Positions 1 to 37,203 of a stretch of 37,511 nucleotides of DNA are shown piece after piece. The notes beneath the pieces were generated by a model. That model saw nothing but the letters and a program-made list of their open reading frames with translations, searched no databases and was not told the origin of the DNA. The stretch comes from Sphaeroforma arctica JP610 (taxonomy: Eukaryota). The DNA lies in the NCBI RefSeq assembly GCF_001186125.1, contig NW_014040098.1, forward strand, positions 1-37,511. Direction: 5' to 3'. Within the stretch, counting starts at the first letter, position 1. Each line of letters starts with the position of its first letter. The translations under genes were made by a program, and so were the position numbers.

Positions 1-400
1 TAGTGTCTGTGCCGTGGTCTCCTTCGTCTTGTCCGGTGTGGCTCGGAAGACGGAGTAGCCAGTGACGATGTCCAAGACGTGAAGTATATAATTGTTCTTG
101 CGTCTGGACTCCAGTGGCATTGGGATGCAATCCACTTGGATGTGGTCCCATGGATAGCGTGCGTCAATACTAATCATCGGGTGTAAGCCTTTACGAAGCG
201 TATCCTGGCCCAAACACATGGCACACTGCCGCTTTACCTCTGTGGCTAATTCTAGTGCCCCAGGTCATACATGACCGTCCTGACGGAGTTGTTGGACTGT
301 GTCCGCTGCCCCATGATGTCCCTGTTCATGTTGCGCTTGTGTAAGCCGTGTGTGTCGCTGTTGCTCTGCCGGAGTTGCCCGTTCAAACGCTGGTTGACTT
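1..400 (-). pseudogene. Family A integrase N-terminal part (HHCC zinc finger and first catalytic Asp)
   Basis: Manual translation: AQHEQGHHGAADTVQQLRQDGHV*PGALELATEVKRQCAMCLGQDTLRKGLHPMISIDARYPWDHIQVDCIPMP...YILHVLDIVTGYSVF. The TGA at 265-267 sits where Trp is expected. Confidence 0.9.
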
Positions 401-519
401 TCGGCGTCCGCCATTGCCACTTCGCGCGCTGTGTCTAAGCACATCATATACTCTATGTGCTTTGGTTCTGCATACCCAAGTCGCTGTGAAAGCAGGGGGT
501 CCAACTTGAACCCGTTGTG

Positions 520-930
520 GGGTCCCACCCGTGCTACTACCGTATGTCCCCAAGGTGTCTTCCCGCAGGCGTACTTGGCATGCTTGAGGAATGTATGGGG
601 TGGGGTGTTCGTGGGATCAATAGTGGATCTGTTTGCAATAACTGCTTGAACAAGTCAAACCATGTTGCTCTTGGTATCCATGGCAAACATACCGTTGCCC
701 GTGCACCGTCCGCTCGTATCTTGCGTAACATCCTATATATCTGTTTCCAAGGTGGGTTCATCCATCCGTCAACTGTCGACCAGTCGTGAGCAAACGCGCC
801 TTCTCCCTCGTCCTTAGTCCAGAATCTAGGGAGCTGAGCGTTGGGTGGATCTGCAAATACATCTGCGTCGTTCGGACCGAAGTGTTGTTGCGCTTGTTCA
901 AAGTAGCTAGGGAACAACTGCCAACAATCC
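520..930 (-). pseudogene. Family A Dam/DIRS-like N6-adenine methyltransferase domain in Pol
   Basis: TDCWQLFPSYFEQAQQHFGPNDADVFA (motif I-like), NAQLPRFW, GAFAHDW, WMNPPW (747-758, motif IV), ATVCLPWIPRATWF. After a frameshift near 600: TFLKHAKYACGKTPWGHTVVARVGP. Confidence 0.85.
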
Positions 931-984
931 GTATACAGTATTTCAGGTTCGTCCTGCTCCGCTGTTCCCTCATGCACTCCTTCT

Positions 985-1830
985 TGCCACGTTAGTGCGT
1001 GCCTTTCCTTCCATCGGTCGCCGATCAACTCTTTCGGTTTGAGCTTGCGAAATTCGCGCAACGGTGCAACCGTATTCGCAAAGTTAGGGAGATGCTCATG
1101 GAGATAATTCGCCAACCCTAAGGCAGAGGCTATATATTTGTACCGTAGTGGGGGTAGGCCAGTCAATAAGTTTCGCCTGTTTCTCATGATCAATGTCTAT
1201 GTCCTTATCCGACACCTTCTTTCCTATGATCATCACTTCCGAAATGGCAAAGTGGCATTTGGCAGGATTGAGCTTACCCCGTTGAATCACCTTCCACACC
1301 GTCTCGATATGTTCGTAGTAGTCATCACTAGCGATCACGATGTCGTCGATATAGTGATGGACCGGTAAGCCATCCAGTATCGTGCTCAAGGTTCGCTGGA
1401 ACTGTTGTGTGAGCACGTGTAGTCCAAACGGCGCTGATGTTAACGAGTACAGGTAACGCTCGTGAGTGAAACTAAAGAGATATTGTGAGTCAGGATGGAT
1501 CGGTAGCCTATGATAAGCAGCCGATATGTCCAGCGTGGTGTAGTACTTCTTACTCTTGAGGCGAGAGATCAGTTCGTTGACCTTGGGAATTAAGAACTGA
1601 TCGCCTGGGATCAGGGCGTTGACCGCCCGCATATCTAAGCACACGCATACCTTCTTCACATTCCTCTCTGCATCAAACGTCAGGACCGCGAGGAGCGAAA
1701 AGTTAACCGTCGTTGGTGTCGTCCGCTTCGTTATGACCAGGTCCGACAACCATTTCTGTACTTGCTCGTCTACGTATGGTAGCCACCGGTCGGATACGAA
1801 GTTACGCGTTGATCTGCGCATATGCATCGC
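985..1830 (-). pseudogene. Family A reverse transcriptase
   Basis: KKVCVCLDMRAVN, YTTLDISAAYHRL, APFGL, HHYIDDIVIAS, KLNPAKCHFA, LIDWPTPTT, then frameshifted thumb LGLANYLHEHLPNFANTVAPL. Confidence 0.95.
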
Positions 1831-2049
1831 CTGTTCGTGGGTTACCGGAATAGTAACCTCGCTCCCTTCCAGACGACAACGTGCGTTGTCAGCAATCTAT
1901 GCGTTCGTTTCTAAGTCCCGTGTGAGTCCCTGTGTTCGGCGCCTGTCGGCGTGAGATTGGTTCGAGAAGCTCGTCGAGTTCTGTAGGGTCGATAGGCGCG
2001 AGTGGAGATTTGAATGCCTCCTATGTATAGGCCCAAACCCTTCAACATG

Positions 2050-2409
2050 TCTTGTCCCACTATAACGTCTATCCCCATGGTAAAATCATTAGTTATAGTG
2101 AGCCGTCAATGATCTTGGACCCATACCGAATAGGAACCACTTCCGTCGTCCCCAGTCGAGGAGTTCGAACCGCCTTGTCAGCTAAATATATGAATGACCC
2201 ATGTGGTGCTGGAGTTGTCGGGCGGCCGAGGAGGTCTGCGGATGTCTGTGATTTGCTCCCGTGTCAATTAGTGCCTTGAACATCTGTCCGTTCACTTGCA
2301 CTTGGATATAAACACGGTTATCAGACGACAGCAATGGGTCCTGTATCGCCATTACGTCCCTAATAGTGTTAACAAATGTGAAGCTCCTATCCAACTCAGA
2401 CACCCTCAC
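2050..2409 (-). pseudogene. Family A aspartic protease
   Basis: RVYIQVQVNGQMFKALIDTGANH (DTG motif), frameshifted downstream. Confidence 0.85.
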
Positions 2410-6409: not shown

Positions 6410-8380
6410 ACTTCTCTATCATGGTCTCACAATTGAAAGTCCTCTCATCTACCAAAATTAGGTGAGTGGTTTGTGTTCTACGTTCGATATTTTCATTAAA
6501 GCAACGCGATCGGATAAGCATGCACTTTCTGAACCAGGATCAATTAATTCAAGGACTTTATTTTCATTGCAATATACAGGGATTACTACGCGCTCATCTA
6601 AGGAGTCGTTGTATTTTTTTGTTTGAATTGAACCCGCTAGTACCTTCACTCCAACTTAATGTCGGGTTTCTTGTCGAAGACTTAGCGTGATGGTCATTTG
6701 TCTTCTCGCACTTGTCGCACTTACTAAGATAGTGCTTATAAGTCAGTTCGTGGCGCCCGTTCCATCAACCGTTCGGGGTTAATTGGTACATATCGTACCC
6801 ACGCTTTGTAATAGCAGGGGCCTCCACGTTAGAATCTTGTATATAACCATGCTTTTAAAAGTACGTAAAACTTGGTTTTCCTAAATTGTTTTTTAACGGT
6901 GAAATTAATTAAATACCTTTTCCATTTTTCATTTCAGATATTTGGACATGGCCATTAAAGGCTCGATTATATGCCAAAGATATGATTTGGCCTCGTTCTA
7001 TTAATATAACTATATTAGACTTCCAAATCTATTTATATCTGAATACTCCGGTAGCGAGATGGCTCAACCGAACACAGGTTTCTAGGGACGATTAGCGTTG
7101 CTTAGTTTATCATCCGTTCAGCCAACCAGATTGCCAATCTGACGAAGGCTAGTCGGTAATTCTTGATAGTGAATAGTTATTGGTTAATACAATAACCAGC
7201 GACAACAATAATATTTTTCTTTTTCTTTTTTCTGTTTTTCTTTTCTTCTAAAGATAGGAGGATTTCACGAGTCTCTCGAATTTGTCCCGACGAAACATAG
7301 TAATAGTCTCAGGACTGAGAGGATTATATATAGGCAATGTCTCAGCCGCACAATCCCCCAGAGTGTTTCACGAGGCATACCTAACTTTACTAAAAGACTC
7401 ATTCCGTTTATTTTAGTTTGAATTTATTGAACTTAAGACCATTTTAAAGCGTTTAACTACTCTAAGTTGTTAACACCGCCTTGGGAGGCCGAAATTTACA
7501 ACTTCTCGTCCGCATACTTCTTGACTTTTTTTGTACGGAGGTTCCTTTTCGACACGCGCCTTCTTTTGGGTCGCATGTTGGGAACGTTCTCTCGCGGGCG
7601 TACCGATGGACGCTCGTTAGAGGTCTGTTGGGACACGTACCCTTGATCAGACTTCCCCCATGGTTCATTACCAACCACGTGCTCTTTCGAGGATACTTGA
7701 TCCTAGGTATATGTGTCGTATACAGTATAAAAAAACTGCTCCCAACGTAGTCGGATCAAGTGGAACTTTTTCGCTTGACCCTGTACTATCGACTCGTTTG
7801 ACATACTTGCGACAAAGTTCGCTATACAGCCTCTCGCGATCGTTGCTACCAATGTTCACGCAAAGTACATGCTTGGCACGCAACTCATACTATCATGGCT
7901 TTTCATCCCTGGTTATATTAGGTCTGTTTAAGTCCGTGTCGAGCATTAATATGTAGCTCAGTATGGTAGTGCTCGGTGCTAGGAGTACCAAGATCGGACA
8001 TATAACTCGGCTGCGCATACCTTTGCTTAGTAGGAAGGCTACTAATCAGCATACCTCATGCCAGTTATGACAGCGGTCAAGCTCGTCGAGGTGCTTCTGA
8101 AGGATCTGATAACCGATTCCTTCAGGATTGAACGATTGTATAAGCGCAGAGATCCATTGCTGGAGTGCGATGTCATTCGTCTCTAGCATTACAGGAAAGG
8201 CGTTCAGGGAACGAGACAGTGTCTCGAGATCATGGTTATTGATGAACTCGGACTTCTGGGAGTTAGTATCCCAGTTCGACGTATGTTTACTGATCATGTC
8301 CTTGTATTTCTGATTGTCGCGGTTATCCTGACCGCGTTATGCATGTAACAGCTGAATGATACGCTTCTGTTTGATGGCAC
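6410..8380 (-). mobile_element. Gypsy family B, copy B1 fragment (3' gag + protease), split by a solo LTR
   Basis: Reverse complement aligns by eye with ~14280-15560: NNHDLETLSRSLNAF, NIGSNDRERLYSEL, KCDKCEKTNDHH, VVIPVYCNENKVLELIDPGSE. Confidence 0.9.
6807..7500 (+). repeat. Solo LTR of family B (694 bp, TGTA...TACA) with 4-bp TSD
   Basis: Starts TGTAATAGCAGGGGCCTCCAC and ends GAAATTTACA; homologous to LTRs at 29389/34501-35216 and 36433-37203. Flanks GCTT/ACTT; removing the LTR and one TSD restores gag DEKCGYDM (DAQCGNDM in B2). Confidence 0.92.
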
Positions 8381-13181: not shown

Positions 13182-15326
13182 ACAAGGGACACGTCTCATG
13201 ACGCCCAAGCCCATTCTTTTGACGAACTCAGAAAGGAAAGTCCCCAATTATAAGGGCGTCCCCAATTATAGGGGACAAGGACAAATCTCAGAAGGAACCT
13301 ATTATGGAACCAGAAGAGGAGGCAAGCTCAAGTGGCAAACCTGACTTTACGTCCGAGACTACTAAGCCAACGCACATAAAATTACTGAAAACACTGATCT
13401 TAAGAATCAGTTAGCTACCATTATGAAAGACTTGACTGTCGAACATCTAGATCAATTATATAGATCAGGAAAATATACACAGCACTTACGCGAGCATGTT
13501 TCCCCGGGCATTACTAAAGCCCTACAGAAGTGGACAGAACGTCGACAGGCAATTACGCCCGAAGAACGTAAAGACTCATGCGCTACACCTGTGGCATATG
13601 AGCCAGATGTGCTTAGCGTATCTATACCTTACGAGGCACTACCGCCAGAAATTCATGATAGTTACTCGCCTGTTCTGACACCCGGCCGTGAGTCACCCGT
13701 CCTCGAGGGTATTATAGACTCAGAGGCAGGTAGAAATACTCCACCACTTTTACCCAATTGGGGATGACAATCGTCGGAAACCAGTTAAGACTAGGTATGT
13801 TATCCAGACGCATGAATCACCCAAGATTACAATACAAACCACTATCCGAGGAACAGAGCACCGAAAGGCCTCGACCATGGATTTTACCAGGGGTAATAAA
13901 CACCCCCGTAGAGGCAGGTAGAAATACTCCGCCACTTTTACCCAATTGGGGATGACAATCGTCGGAAACCAGTTAAGACTAGGTATGTTATCCAGACGCA
14001 TGAATCACCCAAGATTACAATACAAACCACTATCCGAGGAACAGAGCACCGAAAGGCCTCGACCATGGATTTTACCAGGGGTAATAAACACCCCCGTAGA
14101 CGTGTTAACGAAGTTAAATTTAATCGCTTCGATCGCACAGCACTACATCAACCCGCAGAGGATTTTCACTCTGGCGAGGTGACCGAACTTAACAAATCGG
14201 TCGACGATTATACCAGTAAAATGGAAATCGCCCACGATGCGCATTATGCTGATGATGTAACATACTTTGCGAATATGATTGCGATTAAGCAAAAGCGCAT
14301 TGATCAGTTACTTCAGGCCCAACGTGGACAAGACCACATGGACAACCAGAAGTACAAAGGGCAAATCAGTCGACTTGGGTCGAACTAGGATGCCAACAGT
14401 AAGCAGGTCGAGTTTATAAACAACTATGACCTCGACACGCTAACCCGTACGCTTAATGCGTTTACGGTTCTGCTGGAGCGAACGATATCGCTCCCCAGCA
14501 ATGGATCTCTGCTTTAATGCAGACGTTTGACCCTACAGATACAAGTTATTTGATCCTGCAGCGACACCAGTATGAGCTAGATACTTGTCGTGACTGGCCA
14601 GCTGTGTGTTGGTTGGTTACATCCTTGTTAAGTAAGGACATGCGTAGCCCTGGACTGAGTTCAATTTTAACTGATCCAGTTGAGAACACGCCCATTCAGA
14701 GTTATATTCTGAAGCTAGATGCTGACCTGAAACGTCCAGATATAACAAAGGACAAGGCACAGCGATGGTACGAGTTCCTGGTTATGCACGTGTTCTGTAA
14801 GAACATAGGGAATAACGACCGTGAGAGCCTGTACACCGAGTTGCGACGTAAACACGCGACTGAGGCTCGAGAAAAGGGACATGAAACAAATTTTCATCGA
14901 TCCCGACTTACGTGGGAACAGTTTTATGATACTGTATCCACCCTTTTCCCCTCACATCGAGTAACATTGAAGGGAAAAGCGGCTGTTAAGTAGCCGCGGG
15001 AGCACACCGATCACGGGTACGTATCCAGGCAGACCTCAAACGAGGGACTCCAACATACAAGTGCTCGCGACTCCACTCTATCCACGCGACCCAATAAATG
15101 GGCACGCGTGGGAGCGAAGGACATGGAACCTCCATTTAAGGAGATTAAGAAATGTGCCGACGCACAGTGTGGAAATGACATGTACCAATTAACCCCTAAC
15201 GGTTTTTGGAATGGCAGACATGTATCCACCTGTACACACTTTCTTATTAAGTGCGACAAGTGTGAGAAGACCAATGGCTATCACACTAAGTCTTGTGACA
15301 AAAAGCCCAACATTAAGTTGGAGTGA
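13182..15326 (+). pseudogene. Family B gag with C-terminal Cys/His knuckles
   Basis: Fragmented ORFs ending CADAQCGNDM...WNGRHVSTC...CDKCEKTNGYHTKSC...KLE-TGA. Confidence 0.8.
13722..14097 (+). repeat. Near-perfect 188-bp tandem duplication in B2 gag
   Basis: Units 13722-13909 and 13910-14097 with AGA microhomology at the junction; single copy in B3 (~36158-36345). Confidence 0.93.
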
Positions 15327-16800
15327 AGGTACTACCAGGTACAATCGTTACACAGACAATACAACGACTCTTTAGATGAGCGTGTAATAATCCCTGTATA
15401 CTGCAATGGAAATAAAATCCTTGCGTTGATTGATCCTGGTTCAGAAATTTCATGTATATCCGATCGCTTTGCATTAATGAAAGATATCGAAAGGAGAACA
15501 CAAACAACTCACCTCATGTTAGCTGATGATAAAACTGCTAAGTGTGATACCATGGCCACAGATGTTAAAATCTCCCTGGCCGATGATAGAAATATCACTA
15601 CCCAAGCTGTGATAGTTAAGATGTCACAGAAGTACGACATTATAGTCGGAGTGAGTGATTTACTCACTCTAGGTATAACCGTAACTGGTCTACCATATAA
15701 CATAGATCCATTAAAGGATCAATCAGACGATAACTGCCTGAATCCATATAAGCCACCGTCAGATACAGTCAAGGCATTAATACCTGACTTTGCGAACAAA
15801 ATCATGGATCTGATTCTAGTTAATAAGAAGACAAAGATCACAGATTGGGCAAAATTCCGCTTTAACGACGGATATGTCAGCCTTGACTTAACCAAGGTAG
15901 ACTCTACACAGTTAAAGTGTCCCTTAAAGAACTATGTATCCTGGAGACACGAGGCTGTGGTAAAAGAACAAGTTGAGAAATTGCTAACAGATGGAGTGAT
16001 AGAAATTAACTATCAACAGACACCAGTTAACTTGGCGCTGCTAACCGTAGACCAACATAACTCTGACGGATCGTTTAAGAAAGTCAGAGTATGTTTAGAT
16101 ATGAGTCCAATAAATAAATTATTGCCGACTCATAGCTTTCACTTACCTCGTATTAACGAGCTACTGCGAAGGATGGAAGGTGCCACAGTATTTACAACTG
16201 TAGACCTTACACAAGGATACCATCAAATGCAGGTATATGAACCACACCGTAAATACTTTAGCTTTACGTGGAAAGGTAAACAATACCGGTTCAGAGGTGC
16301 ACCTTTCGGGTTACACTCTTTACCAGCATTCTTCCAACAAGTAATGGAAGAAATTTTTGCAGACATGCCTAACGTGCAAGTCTATATAGATGACATAGTC
16401 ATCTTTTCTAAGACTAAGAGCGAACACGCCGCATTAGTCAGACGAGTCCTTAAGAGATTCAACGAGCAAAACTTCAAGATTAACGAGAAGAAATGTCACT
16501 TCGCAATGAGCGAAATACCGCTCTTAGGCTACCATATATCTGGGGAAGGTATTAAAATTGACACCGGTAAGGTAGCACACCTGTTAGATTGGCGAACACC
16601 AACTACAGGAAGAGATGTTAACAGCATGTGTGGGTTTGTAAACTTCTTTTCAGATGGAGTACCACATTTAGCTGACTACCTTAAACCTTTTGAACACTTA
16701 AGATGTCATAAAGGCAAACTAGGAGACTTGTAGACTAAAGAGTGTGATGACGCATTTAAAGCGCTCAAGAACGCAGTCCAACAAGCTCCTATTGTACAAG
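15327..16800 (+). pseudogene. Family B protease + reverse transcriptase
   Basis: ILALIDPGSEISCIS, DIIVGVSDL, KKVRVCLDMSPINK, FTTVDLTQGYHQ, APFGL, VYIDDIVIFS, KCHFA, LLGYHIS; TAG at 16731 at an expected Trp. Confidence 0.96.
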
Positions 16801-16814
16801 GACCAGTCGATGGC

Positions 16815-17180
16815 GTGCCTTTTGAAATAGCAACGGACATATCAAACTTAGCACGCGGAGGTGTACTATACCAGGTTATAGATAATAAACCTAGGTATAT
16901 ACAATTCTTTAGCCGAGCAATGAATGCATCACAGTTGAATTATCCAACTGTGCAGCAAGAGCTACTAGCCATAGTAGCAGCTTTAACACACTTCCGCGGT
17001 TACTTAAACGGAACAGCTTTTACGCTGATGTGTAATCAGAAATCTCTTCAATATATGAAAGGGATGAACTCCGACTCACAATTACTGAGTCGCTGGCACG
17101 ATACAATATCAAAGTTTCATTTTGATATAAAACATCTACCAGGGATACATAACCATTTACCGGATATATTATCACGCTTC
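16815..17180 (+). pseudogene. Family B RNase H
   Basis: FEIATDIS...GGVLYQ...NYPTVQQELLAIVAALTHFRGYL...HLPGIHNHLPDILSR. Confidence 0.93.
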
Positions 17181-17219
17181 GTACTGGACTTTAATAAATA
17201 CGTACGTGAGTTACTAGCC

Positions 17220-17630
17220 ACTGACTGGAAATGTAACCCCAGGTGGTTTGAACTGGCTCAAAAGATATTTGGGCCACATACAATTGATATGTTTGCTGCA
17301 CATCATAATGCACAACTAAAGAATTACAGGACTTTAAATCATCCTTTGGGAGATGCCTTTCAACTAGACCTCTCCAAACATAATGCGTGGGCTAATACAC
17401 CATGGCAGTTAATTGTCCAATCATTAAATTATGTTCATATACACAAAGCTACAATCCCGTTGTGTTGCCCATTACGGAGTAAAGATCCATGGCTCAATAA
17501 ATTGATAAGCATGATACAATGCGAGCCAATACATTTAGATAGGGAAGTAGATACTTTCCAATATCAGGGTACCCGAGCCGTCCAGAAGACACCCTGGAGA
17601 CATACTATAATATGTCGTATAGGTCCCATT
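17220..17630 (+). pseudogene. Family B Dam/DIRS-like N6-adenine methyltransferase domain, in frame with RNase H
   Basis: TDWKCNPRWFELAQKIFGPHTIDMFAAHHNAQLKNY...GDAFQLDL...WANTPW (17394-17405)...KATIPLCCP...KTPWRHTIICRIGP. Confidence 0.85.
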
Positions 17631-18079
17631 GGAACAACCAAATGGACCCCTTCTGAGACCTTCCTTAACAAGGTCAAAGAATCATAGATTCCACTCTCTA
17701 CTAGATTGAACGTTAAGCAGTTCAATGGCAACACAGCACTTGAAGTCTGTGCACAAGAAATACACTCTACTAATGACATTACAGTTAAGAAGCGTCAGTC
17801 TCTAGCCAGGACTCTGTTTAATAACATAAAGTCCAAGCCCGAAGTCTTTCAAACCCTAGTTTTAAAGGGATTAATGAAAGATAATCCCGAAGTATATACA
17901 CATTTAATCCGACTACTGAATAAGTCAGGTGTATCTAACGCACATGAGCGCACTTATGACACTCATGCGAAAGCAGAACATGAGTCTGGAAACACAGAGA
18001 CCACGCAAGTGGATTCTCAACACCCTACCTTTATTCTGGAGGAGCAGAATGATAAAAAAAATATTGCTTGGCTGACGCA

Positions 18080-18800
18080 AAACCATAAGTTGAAGCACCA
18101 GAACGTAGTAGACGCACTTAAAGATGCTAAGCGAAATGGCATCGCGCACAGCTGGCAACTTTAGTTGACAGAGTATATCAGTCATGTACAGACTGTGATC
18201 TCAACCAGATTAAGCGCTATGGGTTCGCACCGCTTAAGAGTGTGACTGAAGATGTTCCATGGCGCAGGGTCATCATTGATCTGGTTGACCTGCCCACGTC
18301 CGAGCACACAGGCGACCGTTACGTATGCCACTTCTTTGATGTGGCGTCAGGGTATAACTTGCTCTATCCTTTAAAGTACAAGAGTACGCAGACCATGGCA
18401 GAATTATGTTGCCAAGTCTTTGCTGACCACGGGTGGCCGGGTATTATGTGCACTGATAACGGTAGTGAGTTCTGCGATGACGTTATGAAATCGCTAGTAC
18501 CCGTATCAAGGATGTGCCATAAAAGGGGTGTACCATATAAACCGCAAACACAAGGCGCGAATGAAACGCGCCATAGAAGACTTAAGTTCTTCTTGCGTAC
18601 TGCATTAACGGATGATGCAGATGATTGGCCGTACCACCTTAAGTGGGTACAAACACAGATGAACGAGTGTGCTGATCCGGTTACAGGTACAACACCCGCT
18701 CACTATTTTCGTGGATCCCCTTTAACAAGGACGAACCTAATCACCATGAGTTACTATGATTAGAGAAGGTACAACGTATTTATAACGTTGTATATCCTTG
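18080..18800 (+). pseudogene. Family B DDE integrase
   Basis: HKLKH (HH), PWRRVIIDLVD, FFDVASGY, TDNGSEF...PYKPQTQGANE with exactly 35 residues between D and E. Confidence 0.93.
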
Positions 18801-19277
18801 CTTGCAAGAAATACGCAATATTGGTTTAAAAAAAGTTATATAACTAAGGGTTGTATTGAATCCACCGTCGAGCAAAAAAAACCCCCCGCCCTCTGAACAC
18901 GCCCTCTAGAGTTTGTTGGAGTTTACTTGGAAAGCGTGATGTGATCCATCATCCAACTAGAGGGCACTTCCCGCGTGCACAATATTTATTTTATACACAG
19001 GCCAGAGGGCGTAGCACAAAGTATTCATTTAGCCATAGACTTCTGAATTGAAACAAGCCAAGTATCTTCGGCCCATATCGTATCAATTGTATGTTTTTGG
19101 TACCGGGATTTTAAAAGCTTTTTAGGCGCCATTTTTATTTTGAAAACACACGTCGATAAAATGTACAGTCAGAAACTACCTAATTGTCAAGGAAATGCAA
19201 ATAAACACACTTTATGTTCACAGATAAGCGGCTTTGAATCATTTAGTAGTGTAGACAGTAGAACTAGTGCAATCAAT

Positions 19278-19726
19278 ATGGTGCTCTGTGCAGTTGCTTT
19301 ATATTACAATTGTTAGGATGAAGTTATCTCTGGAAAGACTATTGGGGGGTTTCGAATCCCCAAGCACAAAGACTATCCAAAGATGATTACGGGGATAAAT
19401 TTATTGTAGCCAAGCGTAAGGCTGACGTTAATAACTTACAACGAGTCAAGTCCATTGAGGCATGCCAGCGAAAATTCGAACCCCCGGATGGCCTCTCGGC
19501 AACAGAGGTTGAGAGAGACTTTTGGGAACGTGAGCACCGTGTATGCAGTGTCCACTTCCACCCGACCGTATTGATCAGAGATGGAGATCAAGTAAAACCT
19601 GTAGTCGGAGCTTGCCCCACTATGTATCTTAGAAGGTTGAGTCCTAACATTTCGCCCGTAGTAGAAGAAAAAAACGCGTGTACGCCTATTGATATCGCCA
19701 GACGAAGTGTTCAAGTTGAACACTGA
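19278..19726 (+). pseudogene. Degenerate THAP (C2CH) zinc-finger ORF, likely a DNA-transposase remnant
   Basis: Manual translation: MVLCAVALYYNC*...GFRIPK / frameshift ~19380 / ...QRVKSIEACQRK...HRVCSVHFHP...KPVVGACPTMYL. Matches the THAP pattern MxxCxVxxC...FP...W...CSxHF...AVPT with the second C and the W mutated. Confidence 0.7.
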
Positions 19727-20089
19727 TCTAGTCAGCCCCATCAACTATTAAATCGTTTGTTGACTTTGATGAGAAAGCATTCCGAGCTCGTAAGAGAGCG
19801 ATGCAGAACGATGAACTTTGTTTCGATCGATTATGATTATTGATTTAGCCTTGTTATTTTTATTTTTTAAATGACATTTATGTCTATGTATATTTTTTTC
19901 ATTTAAAAACCCCCACCAAAAAACCAAAAATCATGTGGTGGCAACTAATAATTAATTGGTTTACATCTTGGCGGCGGAATAGATAAATTTGTTACTAGCT
20001 CTATATGTAGTGGTACCTACCCAAATTAAGGCATCGGTTTTTATTTCTGGACCTCATGATTGAGAGTTGAGACTCCATGCTGGCCCAAT

Positions 20090-20230
20090 AGCGGCACTGC
20101 CGGCACAACTTGGGCGGCTGAGGCCTGAGCCCGTGCCCCGTACGGCGTAGGCCGTAGGCCGTAGGCCCGTGCCCCGCAGCGCCAAGGGCCCAAGCGCCAC
20201 AGCACAGCACTGTTGTAGCCTCGACTCTCG
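20090..20230 (+). promoter_or_regulatory. GC-rich putative promoter of the adenylosuccinate synthetase gene
   Basis: GC island with repeated GGCC(C)/GTAGGCC/CCGTGCCCCG about 200-340 bp upstream of the ATG; assigned by position only. Confidence 0.35.
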
Positions 20231-20430
20231 AGTCTTTCTGAACCCGCTACGATTCTGCCGACATGCGACAGGCCGACAGCCCGAGATTACAGCACAAATA
20301 TTTCCACACTCTTGAGTTGAAAGTAGTTTGATATAATTAGTAATATAATAGAGAATATACGTTCGGATTTCTACCGAGTGTATGTATATGCAAATATACC
20401 TGGCGTATATACATATACACGTTTGTAATC

Positions 20431-23606
<3,176 letters not shown>

Positions 23607-28179: not shown

Positions 28180-29388
28180 ATGGCAGGAGGAGCAGTTAGA
28201 AGTCCACCTAGTATTTATGGCGGATCTTTGGGGCGACAGTTAGACTTCTCTATGGATGATGATGTTTTGAATAAGAAATTTTGTGTGCCAGAAGACAGCA
28301 GCGACGATGAAGAGTTTTGTGATCCGCTCATTAGTGTGACATAGGAGAACAAACATCTTATCATGCATCTCACAACATATACAACATTGGAGAGCTTTGT
28401 GATAATCTAGACACTGACGTAGAAGCACAAGATGCAAATCAAAATGCTAATGGTTGCAGTGGTGAAGTTGATCTTGCAGAAAGCGAGGACGAGTTTAATA
28501 AAATACTTGCAGATAATGCCTTAGATGTACCTGCAGTATTACAGCCTAAACCGAGAAAGAAACGTACCAAGGCAAAATTATTGCCTACAGGTGATGCATT
28601 GCGCAGTGGATGTTTGTCTACTATAATTGCGCACGAGTCGCCCCTGAAGCAATATGCACCAAGGGTTTCAGCACTCTCGATACTTCTGTACAACTTACTA
28701 CTGCATCAACCACTACTGCTCTAGATTCTACGACATCAGCTGCTGCTGCTCTAGATGGAGTAACTACTGCTGAGGCTACATCGACTATTGCTACTTTAGA
28801 TACTACTACATCAGGGTTTATTGCACCAGTTTTAGATACGTCAGCTACTATAGCTCCAGTTAATACTACGTCAGCTACTACTGATACAGCTACTATTGAA
28901 AAGACAGCTACTACTGAATCGACGACTTCTGCTCTAGATACTACTGGTGCAGCTACTACTGCACAAGTTGCTACTACATCAGCTACTACTGAGTTGACAG
29001 CTACTACTGAATCGACGACTTCTGCTCTAGAAACTACTGATGCAGCTACTACTGCACCAGTTGCTACTGTATACGTCAGCTACTACTGAATCGACTACTT
29101 CTGATCTAGACACTACTGGTGCAGCTACTACTGCCAGCTACTACTTCTCCGCTAATAATACGAACAGTTGCACAAGAATATCTGACATTTACAAAAGTTA
29201 ATCTCTGGAAGGAGTTAACAAGAATCTCGTGTTAATCACCCGGTACGATATAAAATCGGGTTCGCTTGTTCCCAATCAACTCTCCAAGTCATACTCCTGG
29301 AAAGGACCTCCATCTTCTGCTCCTAAAGAGGTTTTAGCCAAAGTCTTGGAGATGAACGATGTTTCACATACAAAACTAAAACTCGTAT
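28180..29388 (+). pseudogene. Degenerate ORF of unknown family: acidic N-terminus, basic PKPRKKRTK motif, Thr/Ala-rich repeats; cut by the LTR at 29389
   Basis: MAGGAVRSPP...EDSSDDEEF with stops and frameshifts; CAGCTACTACTGAATCGAC units at 28905, 28998 and 29077. Confidence 0.45.
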
Positions 29389-29443: not shown

Positions 29444-30099
29444 GGATAATATTATTTATTTCAAAGGAGTTAAGTTACAATGTATGTACATATGGTATGG
29501 CTCTCATAGCCGTTGTAGTGGTTCGGGGAAGATCGATGGGAAGAAGTGGTCAGTAAATTTCCTGTTGAAGCTTGGGCCAAGTGAGTCGACAATGGAGGAT
29601 ATGCGCTGGGTCAATTCAGGCCGGTGCTGACAAAAAACTGACACCATCGAGTGTGCCACGTATTCGCTTTCTGACCTACTAAATAGCGTACCCACCTCTG
29701 TGGTTCGGATCGGGTCTTTATCGTGTAGTGCTGTGGAATGGGTTAGTGCAGAGTACGGAATGCCAAGTAGGACCAGGTTATCCGTCATAATTCGGTTGAG
29801 GAGCGAGGTTGGGGGTGAACCGATGCCGCACCAGACCACGGATTCACTCGGTATGTGCTGGTTTGCCTGTATTGGAAGTATCATAGGTGGAACCAACAGG
29901 CGCGATGAATTGGTTTGGACCGAAATTTGGAAGTAGTACTTCAACAGCGTGATTGGCCGGGGTATAGGAAACATCTGTTGATATGTCAGAGACGGGTGTG
30001 GGTACAGGGGTTGTTCTACATGCTGGAGAAAAGATCCAAGGTGTTCGTGGAGGGTCCAGATACCATGGAAGTTGTGGCACTCCTGTAGTTGCTGGAGGA

Positions 30100-32937
30100 G
30101 ATCAGGGCCAATGAGAGGTAGTTTCGGGCCTACCAGGATGTATTGGATCAGTTGCTAGATGCAGGCAAAGTGGCTGGTGGTGAATTTTTGGCCACCGGGG
30201 CAGACAGGGTAGAGACAGCTGTCAGTGCGGTAGTCGAACAATGTGAACATGTACGTATTTGTTACGATCATAGCATAGAGCCGTATTGGTGTAGGCTCGA
30301 AGCAGCGGTTGAAGCTGTCGTGTCTGGCTTTGTCCCGATCTGAGGTTGGCTGTTTGCCCATGACCAATTGGTAGTAGTATTGACGCCGGGCCATTGCTAC
30401 GATCTCCTTGTTGGACCAGCGCTTCGTTGAATTCTTTCTAATGTCGTCACATCTTCGGCGGAGGGCTACATGGTCTGGTGTACGCATGTCCGTGGTTTCG
30501 TATACAGTCTTCAAGTGGGCATAGATACTGTACGGAAAGCGCAGTGAGGGTTTGTCGTGGGCCCAGGCGGGTTACGTCAGAGGGGTGAGTGAGTTTGTGC
30601 TGGCTATTGAGTCGAGTTGCAGTCCCAGGCAACCTCCGAGGTAGTCCGCGAATGCTCGCGTGGGGAGCAGGCCACAAATATGGAGTAAGTTGGTTTGATG
30701 TTTGGGAAACCTAGGGTATTTGGTGCCCGTGATGATGGCTGCTGCTCGAATGAGTGCTGAGTTATAGCGCTCAAACAAGGGCTCCAGCGTATCCTTCCAT
30801 ATAGGTGGAGCCCAGGCAATAATGTTCAGGCCATATTTAGCCGTGGATAGAATGAATGTTTTGAACAACACCAGCCTGTTGCGGGGGTGTCGCCAGCTGA
30901 AGCCATGGAAACCATAAGCGCGGAAGAAGGCGATACCCAGAGACAATGCTGTAACCAGGGATTCCATATGTCTGGTGAAAATTTTAGAAAAACCCGGGCT
31001 TGGATCCGTGCGTCGTCGACAAATAAATAAAAGCGGAGGAGCTTGAGCCGGAATTGTGCTAATGTGGTAGCCAAAGAATCCATGTAGATAATAAAGAGCT
31101 GGGGGCCAACGATTGAGCCTTGTAGGATGCCATTTTTTCTATGAAATAGATGCGAGAGCAAGCCGCCGTATGTCACTCGGGTAGGGATCTTCTCAAATAG
31201 CACGCGGAGGCAGTTGATCCAGTTTTCGGGCATTCCAGCGTGGCGCAAGTGTACCCACAGGCGCGGGAGAGCAACCTTGTCGTATGCCTTGGTAATTTCC
31301 AGACAGACGTCGCTCCACTCCTCTTCCGACTGTGTCTCAGATTCCATGGCGGCGAGTGCTTGGTATGGCAGGGGTATCGTGATTTGAAGCCAGCTTGGGT
31401 TGCGTGGGTAGCAGAGCCGTGGTGGCTAGTAATCAGCTTGAGGAAACACTTCTCAAATATGCGTCTGACGATTTACGCTAGCGTGATAGGGCGGAAGTCG
31501 GCGGGGGAGGTGATATCTGCATCGGCCTTTTTTGGGTGCGCTGTCAGGAGGGTGCAGTTCAGGGCGGTAGGGAAGGTACCCGCCTTTAGTAGCTCAGTGA
31601 ATGCTTCGGCAAGGAGTCTACTCAGTAGGCTATTGGCGTCCGGACGTCCTAGTGTCCTGTGTTCGGGGGAACGCTCCATTGCAGCCTTCAGAAGGAAGAT
31701 GTGGATTCCGTCAGGGCCAGGCCCCTTATTATGATAGCGTAGTATAGTCTCCATTACATCGTCGGGGCGTATGGCAAGAGTTACATCTGGCGAGGGTTCA
31801 GTATTCGGTGGAATAACGTACGGATTCGTGGAGTTGATTAGGTCCTCAAAGTAGCCAGTGAGAGTGGCGCCTGTGTAGTCGGCACCCGGTATGCAGGGTT
31901 GGCGTAGAAATCGTCGTTGGTACGCAATATCTTGGGACATTAGGGTATTGCTTTGGGCGGTCAGACGTGGGCGGAACGAGTGGTTTGGCAGCCGTTGTAC
32001 CCAAGGTCTATTTATGTCGTAGTAGAATCCCCCAAAGATTTGTGGGTTAGCGGCATAGCGCCAGATGCGGTCGAGAATCCGTAGCAAGCCTTCTGCTGGA
32101 CCATGCAAGGTGAGATACGACCGTAGTAGGTTCTGATGCACCCGGATTTTGGCTTGGAATAGTCGTGCGCGGGATTTGTTACGTAAGTGATAAAGTCGAT
32201 GGTGATATCGGTTATATCCATGAGAGGGAAGGCGTTGGTCCGGAGGCGGCGGCATTGTTGGTATTTGTTGGTGCCGACGGATGTGTTCCGTTGGAAGTAC
32301 CTGGAGATCAAGCCCAAAAGTGTGGTCACTATAGATGCTGTAGTTTGACAGTTTATAGGTCTGGAGGGAGGCGGAAGTCGTGGGCCGGTGATACGCATGT
32401 TCTGCACCAGTTGAGCCGCCAGCATAGAGATAGTCAAAGTGCCACGTGTTATGTAGGGTAGTTTCGATCGTGTTCATACGTAGTCCGTGAATTGTGGATG
32501 CGTGACCATACTTACGGGCTTTAAAGTTAAAGTCGCCCCAAACGACGTCTGGTTGGAAATTGCCAATCTCGGGAGGATTCATGTATTTCCTGACGTCTTC
32601 TTCGTTGAGTGATTTGAGTGGGAGGTAGAACACGGCCATATGGACGCCAAAGCATACAAAGGATACCGCGTAAGGTGAGGAGTGAACCAGTTTGAATTGA
32701 GATGGGTGGTGTTTGGAAAAAATACCAATACCACAGTGTGAAGGGTGTAAGATGTTGTGCCGTGTTGTGTGATGTAGAATATGATAGTATGTGTTTGAGG
32801 AATGTGATGTTATGCCAGGTTTCAACCACACACATAACATCAACCTGACTCAAAATCGATATAACGTTCAAGCACTTATCTGTATGTGCTGCATTGTCCA
32901 TGTTGAGTCCTTGTGGGTTGAAGAGCGTCATCCTCAT
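30100..32937 (-). pseudogene. LINE ORF2: endonuclease + RT
   Basis: MRMTLFNPQGL, CVVETW, VWGDFN, SDH; KGPGPDGI, DFRPITL, ITKAYDKV, GILQGSIVGPQLF, LFVDD, LFKTFILSTAKYGL, CLYPVC...HFAC. Frameshifts, and part of the RT after FVDD appears deleted. Confidence 0.92.
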
Positions 32938-32942
32938 TGGTC

Positions 32943-34225
32943 CTAAAATTGTTCATCCTCGGTCAATACTACTGGGCCCTGGTCCTTGTTGATGTCAGCC
33001 ATTTCTATATCGTTTTCTGTCGTCGAAGTGTCTGTGGTGGAAGGTTGAGGCTGTGTGGGGAAGACCGTTGGTACGTGGGGTTGTCCGGGCTGCGCACGTT
33101 CTGGCTGTGTGTCAGCGCCTGTCGGGATTCGTGGGTTAGGTGACAAGCGGTTTGTAGTATGTTTTGTTTGATATGCCTTCTGGAGCCGGTCCGTGGTACA
33201 TTGGAGAATGTCTGCGTTGGTGGAATTAACAAGGGGGTCCAGCAAAGCATTCATGCTACGGGCTAGAAGTTTTGGTGCTCGTTCATGTGTGCAGCGGGCC
33301 TCCCGCTTGGTGCGGAGATAGTGGAATAAGGCTGCTTTCGTAGCGTTAGGATGTTGTTAGGAGCGGGGGTCTATGGTTTTATCAAATTGCCACTTCCACG
33401 TTAGTTCTGTATGACGTTTCACCTGGGCGACAGCGTCATTGGGAACACAAAGACGGACGAAACTGGAGGAGGTCCCGCGGCGATTTAGTTCAGAACCCGG
33501 TTTGAACGGGAGATACCAAAGAAAGTGGTAGCGATTAAGGAGCGGTTGGGCGTGCCAGTATTTCTCAAATACTGATTGGGATGGGGGCTTGCCGTTGGAA
33601 AAAAAATGCCCGAAAGAAGAGCCATACCGGAGTGATGTCATCCATTTCGTGGAGAGTTTTGTCCGGCATCGGGCGGCCCATCACTTTCGTCAGAAGCTGT
33701 GCGGGTGCTGGCGGCTGCAGTAGGGGCTGAGAGGTCGGTGGGATCAGGGGTTTTTCGGGGAGTCGGTTTTGTGGGGTTGCCCACTTTTGAGCGGTAGCTG
33801 GGAGGTTCACTGTTACTACTACAAATGGACGCCTGTGGCCTCGGTCTTTTTGCTGGCGGGGCTGGCGGGCTTGTGGAGCCAAACCGGAAGGTGTTGGGTG
33901 TGCCTTCATTTAGAGGTGCACAGGTTTGGGATTTAAGGTCTCGGAGTTCGGATTCGAGGTTGTTCACTTTGACACAGAATTCCGTGAGTATTTGGTGCAT
34001 GGTTAATTTCCATTGGTCGTCAGCCAGAGGCTTTTTGGAGATGGGCCCATTATTGTCCAGGTTTGGTAGGGCCGGCCCCGACATTTGGTTGAGATTAGTC
34101 TGTAGAGTATTGACCTGGGCAGAGAGGTCTGTGATAGATTTTTGTAAATCCAATTTCCATTGGTCATTGTGCAAGGAGTCGTTGGGGACGAGCGCTTTAG
34201 TTGGGGATTCAGCCTGGCCCGACAT
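32943..34225 (-). pseudogene. LINE ORF1 (duplicated MSG...DQWKL heptad-like segment, Pro-rich linker)
   Basis: ATG at 34225; frameshifted ORFs end a few bp before the ORF2 ATG. Confidence 0.7.
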
Positions 34226-34500
34226 TTTTCGGAGGCTGTGGGACTGTGGTCTGTGGGTCGTGAGACTGTGGGACCCCAAACTCCCCACTGGAATTTTGTT
34301 TTGAAGAAAAATATATATAAATCTAAATCTAAACTCCAGGTCCGGTATGATACTATGTGACTTTTTAGTGGGGTCTGTGGGTTTTTGAATTTGGCATTCA
34401 GTTTTACATTGGTGACTTGCGGGTCACCGAGATTTACGTTTCGGAGACGGAAATTCGAGTCAAAGGTCCGAAAACCCTAAAACCCTAAACCTTTTGATTG

Positions 34501-35216
34501 TACGTAAAATGTACTCTTAAAAGTACGTAAACTTAGTTTTCTTTAAATGATTTTTAACTGTTTTTATTAATTAAATACCTTTGCCATTTTACATATCAGA
34601 TATTTGGACAAGGCCATTAAAAGACCCCAGTAAAATACCAAATATAAGATTTGGTCTAGTTCTATTAATAGAACTATATTTACCTTCCAAATCTATTTAA
34701 TATATCTGAATACTTCGGTAGCGAGATGGCTCAACTGAACATAGTTTTCTAAGGACTATTAGCGTTGCTTAGTTTATCCTCCGTTCAGCCAATCAGATCT
34801 GCCAGTCTGATGAAGGCTAAGTCGGTAATTCTTGATGAGTGGCAAGTTATTGGTTAATGCAATAACTATGGACATCAAGTAGTTTTTCTTCTTTTTTTTT
34901 CTTTCTTTTTTTTCTAAAGATAGGATTTTATGAGTCTCTCGGATTCGCCCCAACGAAACATGTCATAGTTTCTAATAGAGCGACAACGAAACACTAAATA
35001 AAATACCGTCGGCGAAAACAGTACTGAGAGTATTATAAATAGGCAATGTCTCAGCTTCACAATCCCTCAGAGTATTACTGTTTTCACGAGATATACCTAA
35101 CTTTACTAAAAGACTCATTTCGTTTATTTACTTTTAAATTTTGATATACTTAGACATAACCTAAGCCTTTATTTACCCTAAGGCGTTAATATCGCCTCTA
35201 TAGACCGATACTTACA
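34501..35216 (+). repeat. Remainder of the B3 5' LTR (ends CTTACA)
   Basis: Colinear with 6860-7500; contains CCAAT (~34789) and TATAAATA (~35034) boxes. Confidence 0.92.
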
Positions 35217-36432
35217 TATTTTAAAGTCAACAAAGGTATTAACTACTTAGACTACTTAAACGTAAAGGTAGATAACTACCACGAAATTTTTCCTAAGCAC
35301 AGTCATTCCTTCAGAGAATAAGACAGAAGTCATAAGTTAGGATTATGACAAAGAAAGACAATACGTCTGCAAAGAAACGCAAGGCCGAACGTAAGAAGAT
35401 GGAGAGAGAAGCCGCTAGCGCTGCCGCATACAGAAGCAACCGCCGCTGCTGCCGATGCGTTTAACCGCACCGTAGCCGAAGCACTTGTCTCCGACAATAA
35501 TAGTCTGGACAATGCTTCGGATAAGGATGTAGCCACTCCGATTAAGGAGACTACTCCTACAGATAGAGCCCGAGGGCCAACTATTGCCTCAACTTCGAAG
35601 CTCGCATTTACGAAGCCAGGAAGTGAGACAAGGGACACGTCTCAAGACGCCCCAACCAATTCTTCTGACGAAACTCAGAAAGAAAAGTCCCCAAATATAG
35701 GGGACAAAGACGAATCTCAAATGGTACCTGTACCGGAACCAGAAGAGGAGGCAAGCTCAAGTGGCAAACCCGAATCTACGTCCGAGACCACTGAGACAAC
35801 GCGCATTAGTAAGTTAACTACTGAAAACACTGATGTTAAGAATCAGTTAGCCGCCCTTATGAAAGGCATGACTGTTGAACATGTAGATCGAATGTATGGA
35901 TCAGGAAAACACGCACAGCACTTATGCGAGCATGTTTCTCCGGGCACTATCGAAGCCCTATAGAAGTGGACAGAACGTCGTCTGGCAATAACGCCCGAAA
36001 AGCGTAAGGACCTGAACGCCAAACCTGTGGCAGTTGACCCAAATGGACTCAGCGTAACTTTACTTTACGAGGAGCTACCACCAGAAGTCCAGGAGCTTTA
36101 TTCGCCGGTTCTATCACCCGGCCATGAGTCGCCTGTCCTTGAGGGTATTATAGACCCAGAGGCAGGTAGAAACACTCCGCCACCTTTACCCAACTGGGAT
36201 AACAATCGTCGGAAACCAGTTAAGACTGGGTAAGCCATCCAGACGCATGAATCACCCAATATTATAATACCAACGTCTATCCAAGGAACAGAGCACCGAA
36301 AGGTCTCGACCATGGACTTTACACGGGGTAATAAACACTCCTGTAAACGTGTTAACGATGTCGAATTTAATCACTTCGATAGCACCGCCTTACACCAACC
36401 CGCAGAGGATTTTCACTCTGACGAGGTGACAG
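35217..36432 (+). mobile_element. Family B copy B3 leader and 5' gag (ATG 35345), interrupted by copy B4
   Basis: MTKKDNTSAKKRKAERKK...; 35628-36432 aligns with 13182-14185. Confidence 0.9.
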
Positions 36433-37203
36433 TGTAAGTTTCGGTCTATCAAGGCGATATTAACGCCTTAGAGTAAATAAACGCTTAGGTTAAGTCTAAG
36501 TATATCAACATTGAAAAGTAAATATACGACATGAGTATTTTAGTAAAGTTAGGTATGCCTCGTGAAAACATCAATACTCTGAGGGATTGTGAGGCTGAGA
36601 CATTGCCTATATATAATCCTCTCAGTATTGTTTTCGCCGACGGGATTTTATTTAGTGTTTTGTTGTCGCTCTATTAAAAACTATGGTATGTTCCGTTGGG
36701 GCGAATCCGAGAGAATCATAAAATCCTATCTTTAGAAGAAGAAAAAAGAATAGAAAAAAGGAAATTACTCGTGATGTCCGTAGTTATTGCATTAACCAAT
36801 AACTTGCCACTTATCAAGAATTACCTACTTAGCCTTCATCAGACTGGCACATCTGGTTGGCTGAACGGAGGTTAAACTAGGTAACGCTAATAGTCCCTAG
36901 AAACCTATATTCGGTTGAGCCATCTCGCTACCGAAGTATTCAGATATAAATGGATTTGGAAAGTAAATATAGTTCTATTAATAGAACTAGACCAAATTTT
37001 ATATTGGTATTTTACTGGGGCCTTTTAATGGCCTTGTCCAAATATCTGATATGTAAAATGGAAAAGGTATTGATTAATAAAACTGTTAAAAACCATTTAG
37101 GAAATTTAAGTTCCTCGTACTATTAAGAGTACGTTTATAGTTTACGTACTGCGTAAGAGTACGTTTATAACATAGAGTCTAATGTGGAGGCCCGGCTACT
37201 ACA
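36433..37203 (-). repeat. 3' LTR of family B copy B4 (antisense insertion into B3 gag)
   Basis: Reverse complement starts TGTAGTAGCCGGGCCTCCAC and ends GAAACTTACA; near-colinear with 34501-35216. Confidence 0.93.

What the first reader, a model, noticed from the sequence alone, without database searches (positions are those of the whole stretch)
16815..18800. Gypsy LTR retrotransposon with a Dam-like N6-adenine methyltransferase fused between RNase H and DDE integrase
Seen: one reading frame runs from RNase H (...DILSR) into TDW...FGPHTIDMFA...NAQL...DAF...WANTPW...KTPW.HT...RIGP. A D,D(35)E integrase follows, and the family has TG...CA LTRs and a 4-bp TSD. Known: this motif set is the phage-Dam-like MT domain of DIRS tyrosine-recombinase retroelements; canonical Ty3/Gypsy Pol is PR-RT-RH-IN with no MTase. 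Inference: a Gypsy lineage packages its own amino-MTase, possibly to mark cDNA or new insertions with 6mA, which is an active-chromatin mark in several unicellular eukaryotes, or to evade silencing. I cannot check whether this lineage is already described.
Basis: partly seen in the sequence, partly recalled or inferred. Interest (0 to 1): 0.9.

Follow-up and report, generated by a model that had tools for sequence, protein, structure and literature searches.

The report
Broken methylase-carrying gypsy retrotransposon, already described
This is a broken copy of an abundant gypsy-type jumping gene that carries an adenine-methyltransferase-fold domain between RNase H and integrase, a design that a May 2026 preprint already reported in the group of single-celled animal relatives to which the host likely belongs.

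Summary
A stop-free frame (16734-17687) runs from Ty3/Gypsy RNase H into a Dam-family domain (Pfam PF05869; AlphaFold pLDDT 94; amino-methyltransferase fold), and a D,D(35)E integrase follows. Intact relatives keep PR-RT-RH-MT-IN in one frame, so this is no chance DIRS fragment. The window copy is dead: stops, two frameshifts, catalytic motif reading NTPW, 3' end missing near 18850. The family's TG..CA LTR lies elsewhere in the window. It is not new: bioRxiv 10.64898/2026.05.21.726589 describes 'DAM-LTRs', including an ichthyosporean lineage, with the same 6mA hypothesis. The window's RT groups with Abeoforma DAM-LTR proteins (99/97). This scan also found the architecture before on other DNA (23 notes). 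Three small additions. (1) Intact members, Abeoforma's included, end in a divergent chromodomain that Pfam mostly misses, though the preprint says this lineage lacks one. (2) The nearest solved fold is the RNA methylase PCIF1, not phage Dam, so a DNA substrate is unproven. (3) Two Copia elements with the same domain turned up in passing. Likely mechanism: the domain methylates adenine on the element's own replication intermediate inside the particle (inferred, untested).

The parts
13182..15326 (+). Decayed gag-like region; starts at the edge of an N gap, holds a 190-bp tandem duplication and a Cys/His knuckle-like end
   Evidence: ORFs; 81-87% identical to the partial copy at 35628-36430; no Pfam hit above cut-off for 14457-15323; 'gag' is inferred from position
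15390..15656 (+). Aspartic protease
   Evidence: Pfam Asp_protease_2 E 2e-4
15960..16550 (+). Reverse transcriptase (YIDD), Ty3/Gypsy type
   Evidence: Pfam RVT_1 E 3e-28; trees; best solved match of relative P0001 is Ty3 Gag-Pol, E 3e-71
16818..17177 (+). RNase H; one catalytic aspartate position reads N in this copy
   Evidence: Pfam RT_RNaseH E 2e-25
17205..17639 (+). Dam-family (PF05869), PCIF1-like N6-adenine methyltransferase-fold domain; catalytic motif degenerate here (NTPW)
17688..18050 (+). Poorly conserved spacer behind a stop codon at 17685
   Evidence: 32-33% identity to relatives over partial local alignments, against 61-71% for the RT, RNase H, methyltransferase and integrase domains
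18060..18834 (+). Integrase (zinc finger, D,D(35)E core), frameshifts near 18145 and 18715, truncated before the C-terminal SH3-like and chromo domains
   Evidence: Pfam rve E 1e-5; tblastn and spacing; depth drop by 18878
36433..37203 (-). Family LTR, 771 bp, TG..CA, preceded on the minus strand by a G-rich tract; 3' LTR of another insertion
34507..35216 (+). 5'-truncated family LTR joined to the leader and gag-like start of a partial copy (35217-36430)
6807..7500 (+). Solo LTR (694 bp) with a 4-bp target duplication (one mismatch), nested in a decayed copy of the same family (6420-8379, minus strand)
1..2330 (-). Second, distant DAM-LTR family: PR, RT, methyltransferase (NPPW kept), start of integrase; no RNase H in this copy
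   Evidence: Pfam Dam E 4e-9, above cut-off; RT in the same 13-row clade; tblastn with P0008

Best explanation
This is a decayed, 3'-truncated copy of an abundant Ty3/Gypsy LTR retrotransposon of the already described DAM-LTR kind, whose intact relatives encode one polyprotein (protease, reverse transcriptase, RNase H, methyltransferase-fold domain, integrase, predicted chromodomain) and whose methyltransferase domain likely adds an N6-methyl group to adenine on the element's own replication intermediate. Shown here: the domain order, the fold, the conservation, the copy's decay. Inferred: the domain is made as part of Pol and so would be inside the particle with the RNA and the nascent cDNA; being a bare catalytic core of 145 residues with no target-recognition domain, it would rely on RT or integrase for access to its substrate; a marked cDNA would be kept methylated by host AMT1 after insertion and stay transcribed (the preprint's model). 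Odds: identity 0.95; intact copies are active amino-methyltransferases about 0.7; the substrate is the DNA strand of the intermediate about 0.45.
For: Domain order in one frame in P0001 and P0002 (1376 and 1400 aa) and in P0006, P0008, P0011, P0017, P0035. RT clade of 13 rows (99/97) with two Abeoforma whisleri proteins, apart from 8 DIRS-type RTs (100/99). The domain is as conserved as RT: window copy against P0001/P0002, MT 71/66%, RT 69/66%, RNase H 64/69%, spacer 32/33%. 16 of 18 clade relatives keep NPP[W/F], 2 read CPPW; the D-x-F-A-x-x-x-N motif has D in 17 of 17 and N in 18 of 18. Fold: PCIF1 Z 10.3, rmsd 3.3 over 139 residues; the 50 rows shown are nearly all methyltransferase folds. 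The preprint reports more 6mA and more transcription on DAM-LTRs than on other LTR elements in two ichthyosporeans, and an association with AMT1 in 9 of 13 species.
Against: No activity has been shown: the preprint's expression in dam-minus E. coli gave no 6mA. Iyer et al. call DIRS-type domains likely inactive. The nearest structures are RNA methylases (PCIF1, DIMT1/KsgA, Erm, Z 8-10) ahead of T4 and E. coli Dam (Z 7.6). P0002, an otherwise intact frame, lacks the motif's Asn. The preprint's 6mA enrichment is correlative and sits on ApT, the host AMT1 motif, so it may follow transcription. DIRS elements keep the same domain in hosts without 6mA. The host is inferred, not shown.
Confidence: 0.55

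Rival explanations
1. The domain is a PCIF1-like RNA methyltransferase: it marks the element's own RNA (cap-adjacent or internal adenosine, or the RNA strand of the hybrid) to stabilise it or shield it from RNA silencing, and the 6mA seen on insertions is a host by-product of their transcription.
For: Top structural match is PCIF1/CAPAM in both searches (Foldseek E 2.6e-4, the only 3 matches at E<=0.001; VIA Z 10.3), then rRNA adenine methylases. Two relatives have weak Pfam PCIF1_WW hits (P0043 E 5e-4, P0141 E 8e-3). Iyer et al. place DIRS domains in the PCIF1 clade. It explains the negative E. coli DNA assay and the retention in hosts without 6mA.
Against: Sequence profiles tie the domain to phage DNA methylases (PF05869, phrog_111); the profile match to PCIF1 is not significant (E 0.81); the preprint's tree derives the domain from prokaryotic Dam. 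No close solved relative exists, and a shared fold shows no substrate.
Confidence: 0.25
2. The domain is kept as a non-catalytic nucleic-acid or SAM-binding module, or as a structural linker of Pol.
For: Negative activity assay; Iyer et al.'s view; 2 of 18 relatives lack the Asn; earlier scan notes report catalytic-motif loss in other DAM-LTR lineages (unchecked).
Against: 16 of 18 clade relatives and 112 of 153 domains overall keep NPP[W/F], which is hard to explain without catalysis.
Confidence: 0.18
3. The domain is a chance DIRS fragment nested in one Gypsy copy.
For: None found.
Against: In-frame domain at the same position in intact relatives and in a second family in the window; repeat depth is as high over the domain as over RNase H and integrase.
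Confidence: 0.01

Closest known systems
Ichthyosporean DAM-LTR lineage (Fernandez-Moreno et al., bioRxiv 10.64898/2026.05.21.726589, May 2026; whole main text read)
   Same: Ty3/Gypsy RT, Dam PF05869 domain in Pol, DDE integrase; the window's RT groups with Abeoforma whisleri DAM-LTR proteins; the second element's domain is 62% identical to Sphaeroforma arctica SARC_07150; same functional hypothesis.
   Different: The preprint says the lineage lacks chromodomains; intact members here, Abeoforma P0007 and P0009 included, end in a divergent chromodomain. Whether this exact family is in their set could not be seen (supplements of preprints are closed; figures not held).
DIRS tyrosine-recombinase retrotransposons with an MT domain (passages of PMC5890265, and PMC4738411)
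   Same: Homologous methyltransferase domain directly after RNase H; 48 of the 69 RT rows in the tree built from the domain's hits are DIRS-type.
   Different: RT is Gypsy-type; protease and DDE integrase are present; TG..CA LTRs with a target duplication; no tyrosine recombinase hit in P0001 or P0002.
Chromoviruses (Ty3/Gypsy with a C-terminal chromodomain; passages of PMC3350952)
   Same: SH3-like region then chromodomain after integrase; nearest RT neighbours are chromoviruses with and without Dam (L001, P0016, P0023, P0032; support 92/94).
   Different: Carries the methyltransferase; the chromodomain of P0001 and P0002 lacks the first and third cage aromatics, like plant group II domains, and scores below Pfam's cut-off.
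PCIF1/CAPAM cap-specific adenosine N6-methyltransferase
   Same: Best structural match of the domain.
   Different: A cellular RNA enzyme with WW and helical domains; 12-15% identity; no significant profile match.

Membership tests
Ty3/Gypsy LTR retrotransposon | Pol order PR-RT-RH-IN | tested here: met
Ty3/Gypsy LTR retrotransposon | RT groups with Gypsy, not DIRS or Copia | tested here: met
Ty3/Gypsy LTR retrotransposon | D,D(35)E integrase | tested here: met
Ty3/Gypsy LTR retrotransposon | TG..CA LTRs belonging to the family | tested here: met
   not on this copy, which is truncated
Ty3/Gypsy LTR retrotransposon | Target-site duplication of 4-6 bp | tested here: inconclusive
   one solo LTR, 3 of 4 bases match
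DAM-LTR retrotransposons (2026 preprint) | PF05869 Dam domain in an LTR-retrotransposon Pol | tested here: met
   window copy E 4e-4 (weaker than the preprint's 1e-5); P0001 E 7e-6; second element E 4e-9
DAM-LTR retrotransposons (2026 preprint) | Asn-Pro-Pro catalytic triplet at family level | tested here: met
   16 of 18 clade relatives; degenerate in this dead copy
DAM-LTR retrotransposons (2026 preprint) | Raised 6mA and transcription on insertions; host encodes AMT1 | not testable with these tools
   no genome held; no modification calls available
Ichthyosporean DAM-LTR lineage | One clade with Abeoforma, Pirum and Sphaeroforma elements | tested here: met
   RT clade 99/97 with two Abeoforma rows; no Pirum row was available
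Ichthyosporean DAM-LTR lineage | One clade in the Dam-domain tree (the preprint's criterion, 97%) | tested here: inconclusive
   my quick tree leaves the group open at SH-aLRT 84 with other elements inside; the top three named blastp hits are Abeoforma
Ichthyosporean DAM-LTR lineage | No Pfam-detectable chromodomain (descriptive feature as the preprint scored it) | tested here: met
   no Chromo hit in P0001 or P0002 at E<=5. By fold and profile a divergent one is present, also in the lineage's own Abeoforma members, so the description, not the membership, needs correcting
Ichthyosporean DAM-LTR lineage | Ichthyosporean host | tested here: inconclusive
   host ADSS exon scores best on two animal-type entries (176 and 164 bits against 130 or less; the entries' organisms are recalled); nearest named element relatives are ichthyosporean
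DIRS retrotransposon | Tyrosine recombinase instead of DDE integrase; DIRS-type RT | tested here: not met
Chromovirus | Chromodomain at the integrase C-terminus | tested here: met
   in intact relatives: predicted fold matches chromodomains (best Z 7.6, rmsd 2.4, 58 residues; Foldseek E 0.05, prob 1.0); a profile seeded without canonical chromodomains picks them up in round 2; Pfam Chromo E 1e-3 in P0158. Each line is modest alone; absent from the truncated window copy
Active DNA N6-adenine methyltransferase | SAM-dependent methylation of DNA adenine | not testable with these tools
   needs an assay; published E. coli assay negative

The most novel reading that the evidence does not exclude
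The 'Dam' of DAM-LTRs is a retrotransposon-borne PCIF1-type RNA methyltransferase that marks the element's own RNA, and the ichthyosporean lineage is an unrecognised chromovirus branch pairing this writer with a cage-less chromodomain; the same module has also entered Ty1/Copia elements.
Probability: 0.2. Interest if true: 0.65.

Novelty: already known. Interest (0 to 1): 0.2.

Why it matters
As a discovery it matters little: the design, the lineage and the hypothesis were posted in May 2026. It is a further example, and this copy is dead. What could matter to that field is modest. A cryptic chromodomain would remove the split between 'chromodomain' and 'non-chromodomain' DAM-LTRs for this lineage and point to a chromovirus ancestor. 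The PCIF1-like fold suggests testing RNA and hybrid substrates after the negative DNA assay. Dam-bearing Copia elements would widen the recurrent-capture story.

Tried and rejected
No whole genome is held, so no intact copy, copy count, AMT1 search or dN/dS was possible; protein identity by domain served as a proxy. Word-indexed homologue searches were poor: 2 hits among longer proteins, 0 among near-length ones, 3 with P0002. The ESM Atlas gave no result. The viral-contig scan could not run on the alignment; the metagenome scan gave 2 loci, both chromoviruses without the domain. No RNA holder was listed. Motif depletion in the element as a footprint of methylation: none (GATC 0.98, ApT 0.96); uninformative. 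Primer-binding site: no TGG start after the LTR in the window copy, no tRNA gene in the window, and only short complementarities to the LTR; unresolved. The THAP-like ORF (19322-19726) and a TG..CA-looking stretch at 20006-20418 were rejected as parts of the element because they lie at flank-level depth. Profile search of PDB sequences gave nothing significant. The Dam-domain tree is poorly resolved (38 of 76 inner branches open), so I make no claim on the donor. Rows dropped: P0003 (unrelated) and P0072 (Copia RT) from the RT tree; the Dam tree used 79 of 153 domains; the careful RT tree 29 of 69; Pfam was run on 41 of the 150 listed hits; names were looked up for 20. No scan notes exist for this genome or sequence.

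Full report
Observation. Pfam gives RT_RNaseH E 2e-25 and Dam PF05869 E 4e-4, under the curated cut-off. Upstream lie a protease and an RT (E 3e-28); downstream an rve integrase with 35 residues between the second D and the E. The copy is decayed. It has stops at 16731 and 17685 and frameshifts near 18145 and 18715. The catalytic motif reads NTPW at a position where 18 of 18 clade relatives have proline. It starts in an N gap and ends near 18850, where summed contig depth in run X1 falls from about 0.4-1.9 million to 265 (depth is no copy number, but 22,605 contigs were laid on 4 kb).

LTRs. A TG..CA repeat occurs three times in the window, with copies 86-92% alike. The 771-bp copy at 36433-37203 has both ends on unrelated flanks in many contigs, repeat depth continues past 37203, and three listed contigs bridge the LTR end at 35216 into the gag-like leader that is 81-87% identical to the start of the finding's element. 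A G-rich tract precedes it on the minus strand, and the solo copy at 6807-7500 has a 4-bp duplication with one mismatch. The LTR therefore belongs to this family, though not to this copy.

The domain is a fixed part of Pol. Two intact relatives, P0001 and P0002, hold RT, RNase H, Dam and integrase in one frame, P0002 with the protease as well. The domain is 71% and 66% identical to them, as much as RT (69, 66) and RNase H (64, 69), while the spacer behind it is 32-33% over partial alignments. A second, distant Gypsy family at the start of the window has the same domain above Pfam's cut-off. A four-row profile found 5385 proteins at E<=0.001 and 13 at E<=1e-30. I scanned 41 of the 150 listed: 40 have Pfam Dam at E<=0.01, and the best-scoring long ones are RT-RH-Dam-integrase polyproteins. 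Three of the top hits are Abeoforma whisleri proteins and one is Sphaeroforma arctica SARC_07150. In the careful RT tree (29 rows) both window RTs lie in a 13-row clade (99/97) with two Abeoforma rows, next to chromoviruses (92/94) and apart from DIRS-type RTs (100/99) (same shape with 69 rows). The domain tree is poorly resolved. The host ADSS exon scores best on two animal-type PDB entries (organisms recalled), which fits a unicellular relative of animals; the host is inferred.

Fold. The model of the window's domain (66 rows, pLDDT 93.8, pTM 0.88) matches PCIF1/CAPAM best (VIA Z 10.3, rmsd 3.3 over 139 residues; Foldseek E 2.6e-4), then DIMT1/KsgA and Erm (Z 8-8.8); T4 and E. coli Dam score Z 7.6. 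Sequence profiles point to phage DNA methylases and reach PCIF1 only at E 0.81. Iyer et al. already placed DIRS domains in the PCIF1 clade and thought them likely inactive (PMC4738411, passages). Against inactivity, 16 of 18 clade relatives and 112 of 153 domains keep NPP[W/F].

Cryptic chromodomain. Pfam finds no Chromo in P0001 or P0002. The last 60 residues of a model of the P0002 tail (pLDDT 63-78; three rows only) match chromodomains ahead of anything else (best Z 7.6; Foldseek E 0.05, probability 1.0), which are middling scores. A profile seeded with only these two tails finds the tails of 10 clade proteins, Abeoforma P0007 and P0009 among them, and in the second round the canonical chromoviral tails of P0016, P0141, L001, P0032 and P0020. 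P0158 has Pfam Chromo at E 1e-3. P0001 and P0002 lack the first and third cage aromatics, as plant group II domains do (PMC3350952, passages). The window copy is truncated before this domain.

Mechanism. Shown: order, fold, conservation, decay. Inferred: the domain is made with Pol, would be packaged with the RNA, and as a bare catalytic core would act in cis on the element's replication intermediate. I give 0.55 to the best explanation as a whole (N6-adenine methylation of the intermediate, most likely its DNA strand, then upkeep by host AMT1), 0.25 to an RNA substrate with 6mA as a by-product, 0.18 to a non-catalytic role, 0.01 to a chance fragment.

What is known. The first paper search returned bioRxiv 10.64898/2026.05.21.726589, of which I read the whole main text (figures and supplements not seen). 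PMC5890265 (passages) covers DIRS adenine methyltransferases and a Gypsy with Dnmt3. PMC3783388 was seen in a search listing only. Further searches listed no earlier description of Dam in Gypsy elements. The scan's own notes hold 23 findings of this architecture in at least 3 other genomes (seen after the preprint); none is on this DNA.

Verdict. Real, correctly read, already known; interest 0.2. The residue worth passing on is the cryptic chromodomain, the case for testing RNA and hybrid substrates, and the two Dam-bearing Copia proteins, on all of which unseen supplements may bear.

Noticed in passing
proteins P0095 (1248 aa, ENA) and P0072 (522 aa, JGI): Ty1/Copia elements (integrase, SH3, Dam with NPPF, RVT_2) carry the same domain between integrase and RT and pair in the domain tree (SH-aLRT 93). 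The preprint's main text has no 'copia' or 'Ty1'; a paper search for copia, Dam, methyltransferase and DIRS listed 3 papers, whose titles and abstract openings do not describe it; no scan note held all the words. Supplements unseen.
   Followed up: partly
proteins P0018 and P0030 (2144 and 2382 aa): Long polyproteins with an APE-type endonuclease/phosphatase domain, then Dam, then RT, RNase H and integrase zinc finger; long branch in the RT tree.
   Followed up: no
protein P0080: Dam domain next to a dUTPase domain.
   Followed up: no
window 1-2330, minus strand: A second DAM-LTR family; this copy goes from the RT connection straight into the methyltransferase with no RNase H, while its RT sister P0008 has one; probably a deletion in this copy.
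   Followed up: partly
window 15324 and about 6650 (minus strand): Two diverged copies share the same TGA between the gag-like frame and the in-frame pol, which may be a real gag stop with read-through rather than decay.
   Followed up: no
window 6807-7500 and 36433-37203: Both nested LTRs sit in antisense orientation inside older copies of their own family.
   Followed up: partly
window 19322-19726: ORF at flank-level depth with a weak THAP-domain match (E 0.018), just behind the truncated element.
   Followed up: partly
window 20431-22961: Intron-containing host adenylosuccinate synthetase gene (Pfam E 1e-49 for the first exon).
   Followed up: partly
window about 29500-34480, minus strand: A decayed element with endonuclease-like and RT-like frames, probably a non-LTR retrotransposon (read by eye; two frames gave no Pfam hit); its end abuts the truncated LTR at 34507 through short telomere-like repeats.
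   Followed up: no
window 28595-29134: Thr/Ala/Ser-rich repeat frame, mucin-like, on the plus strand.
   Followed up: no
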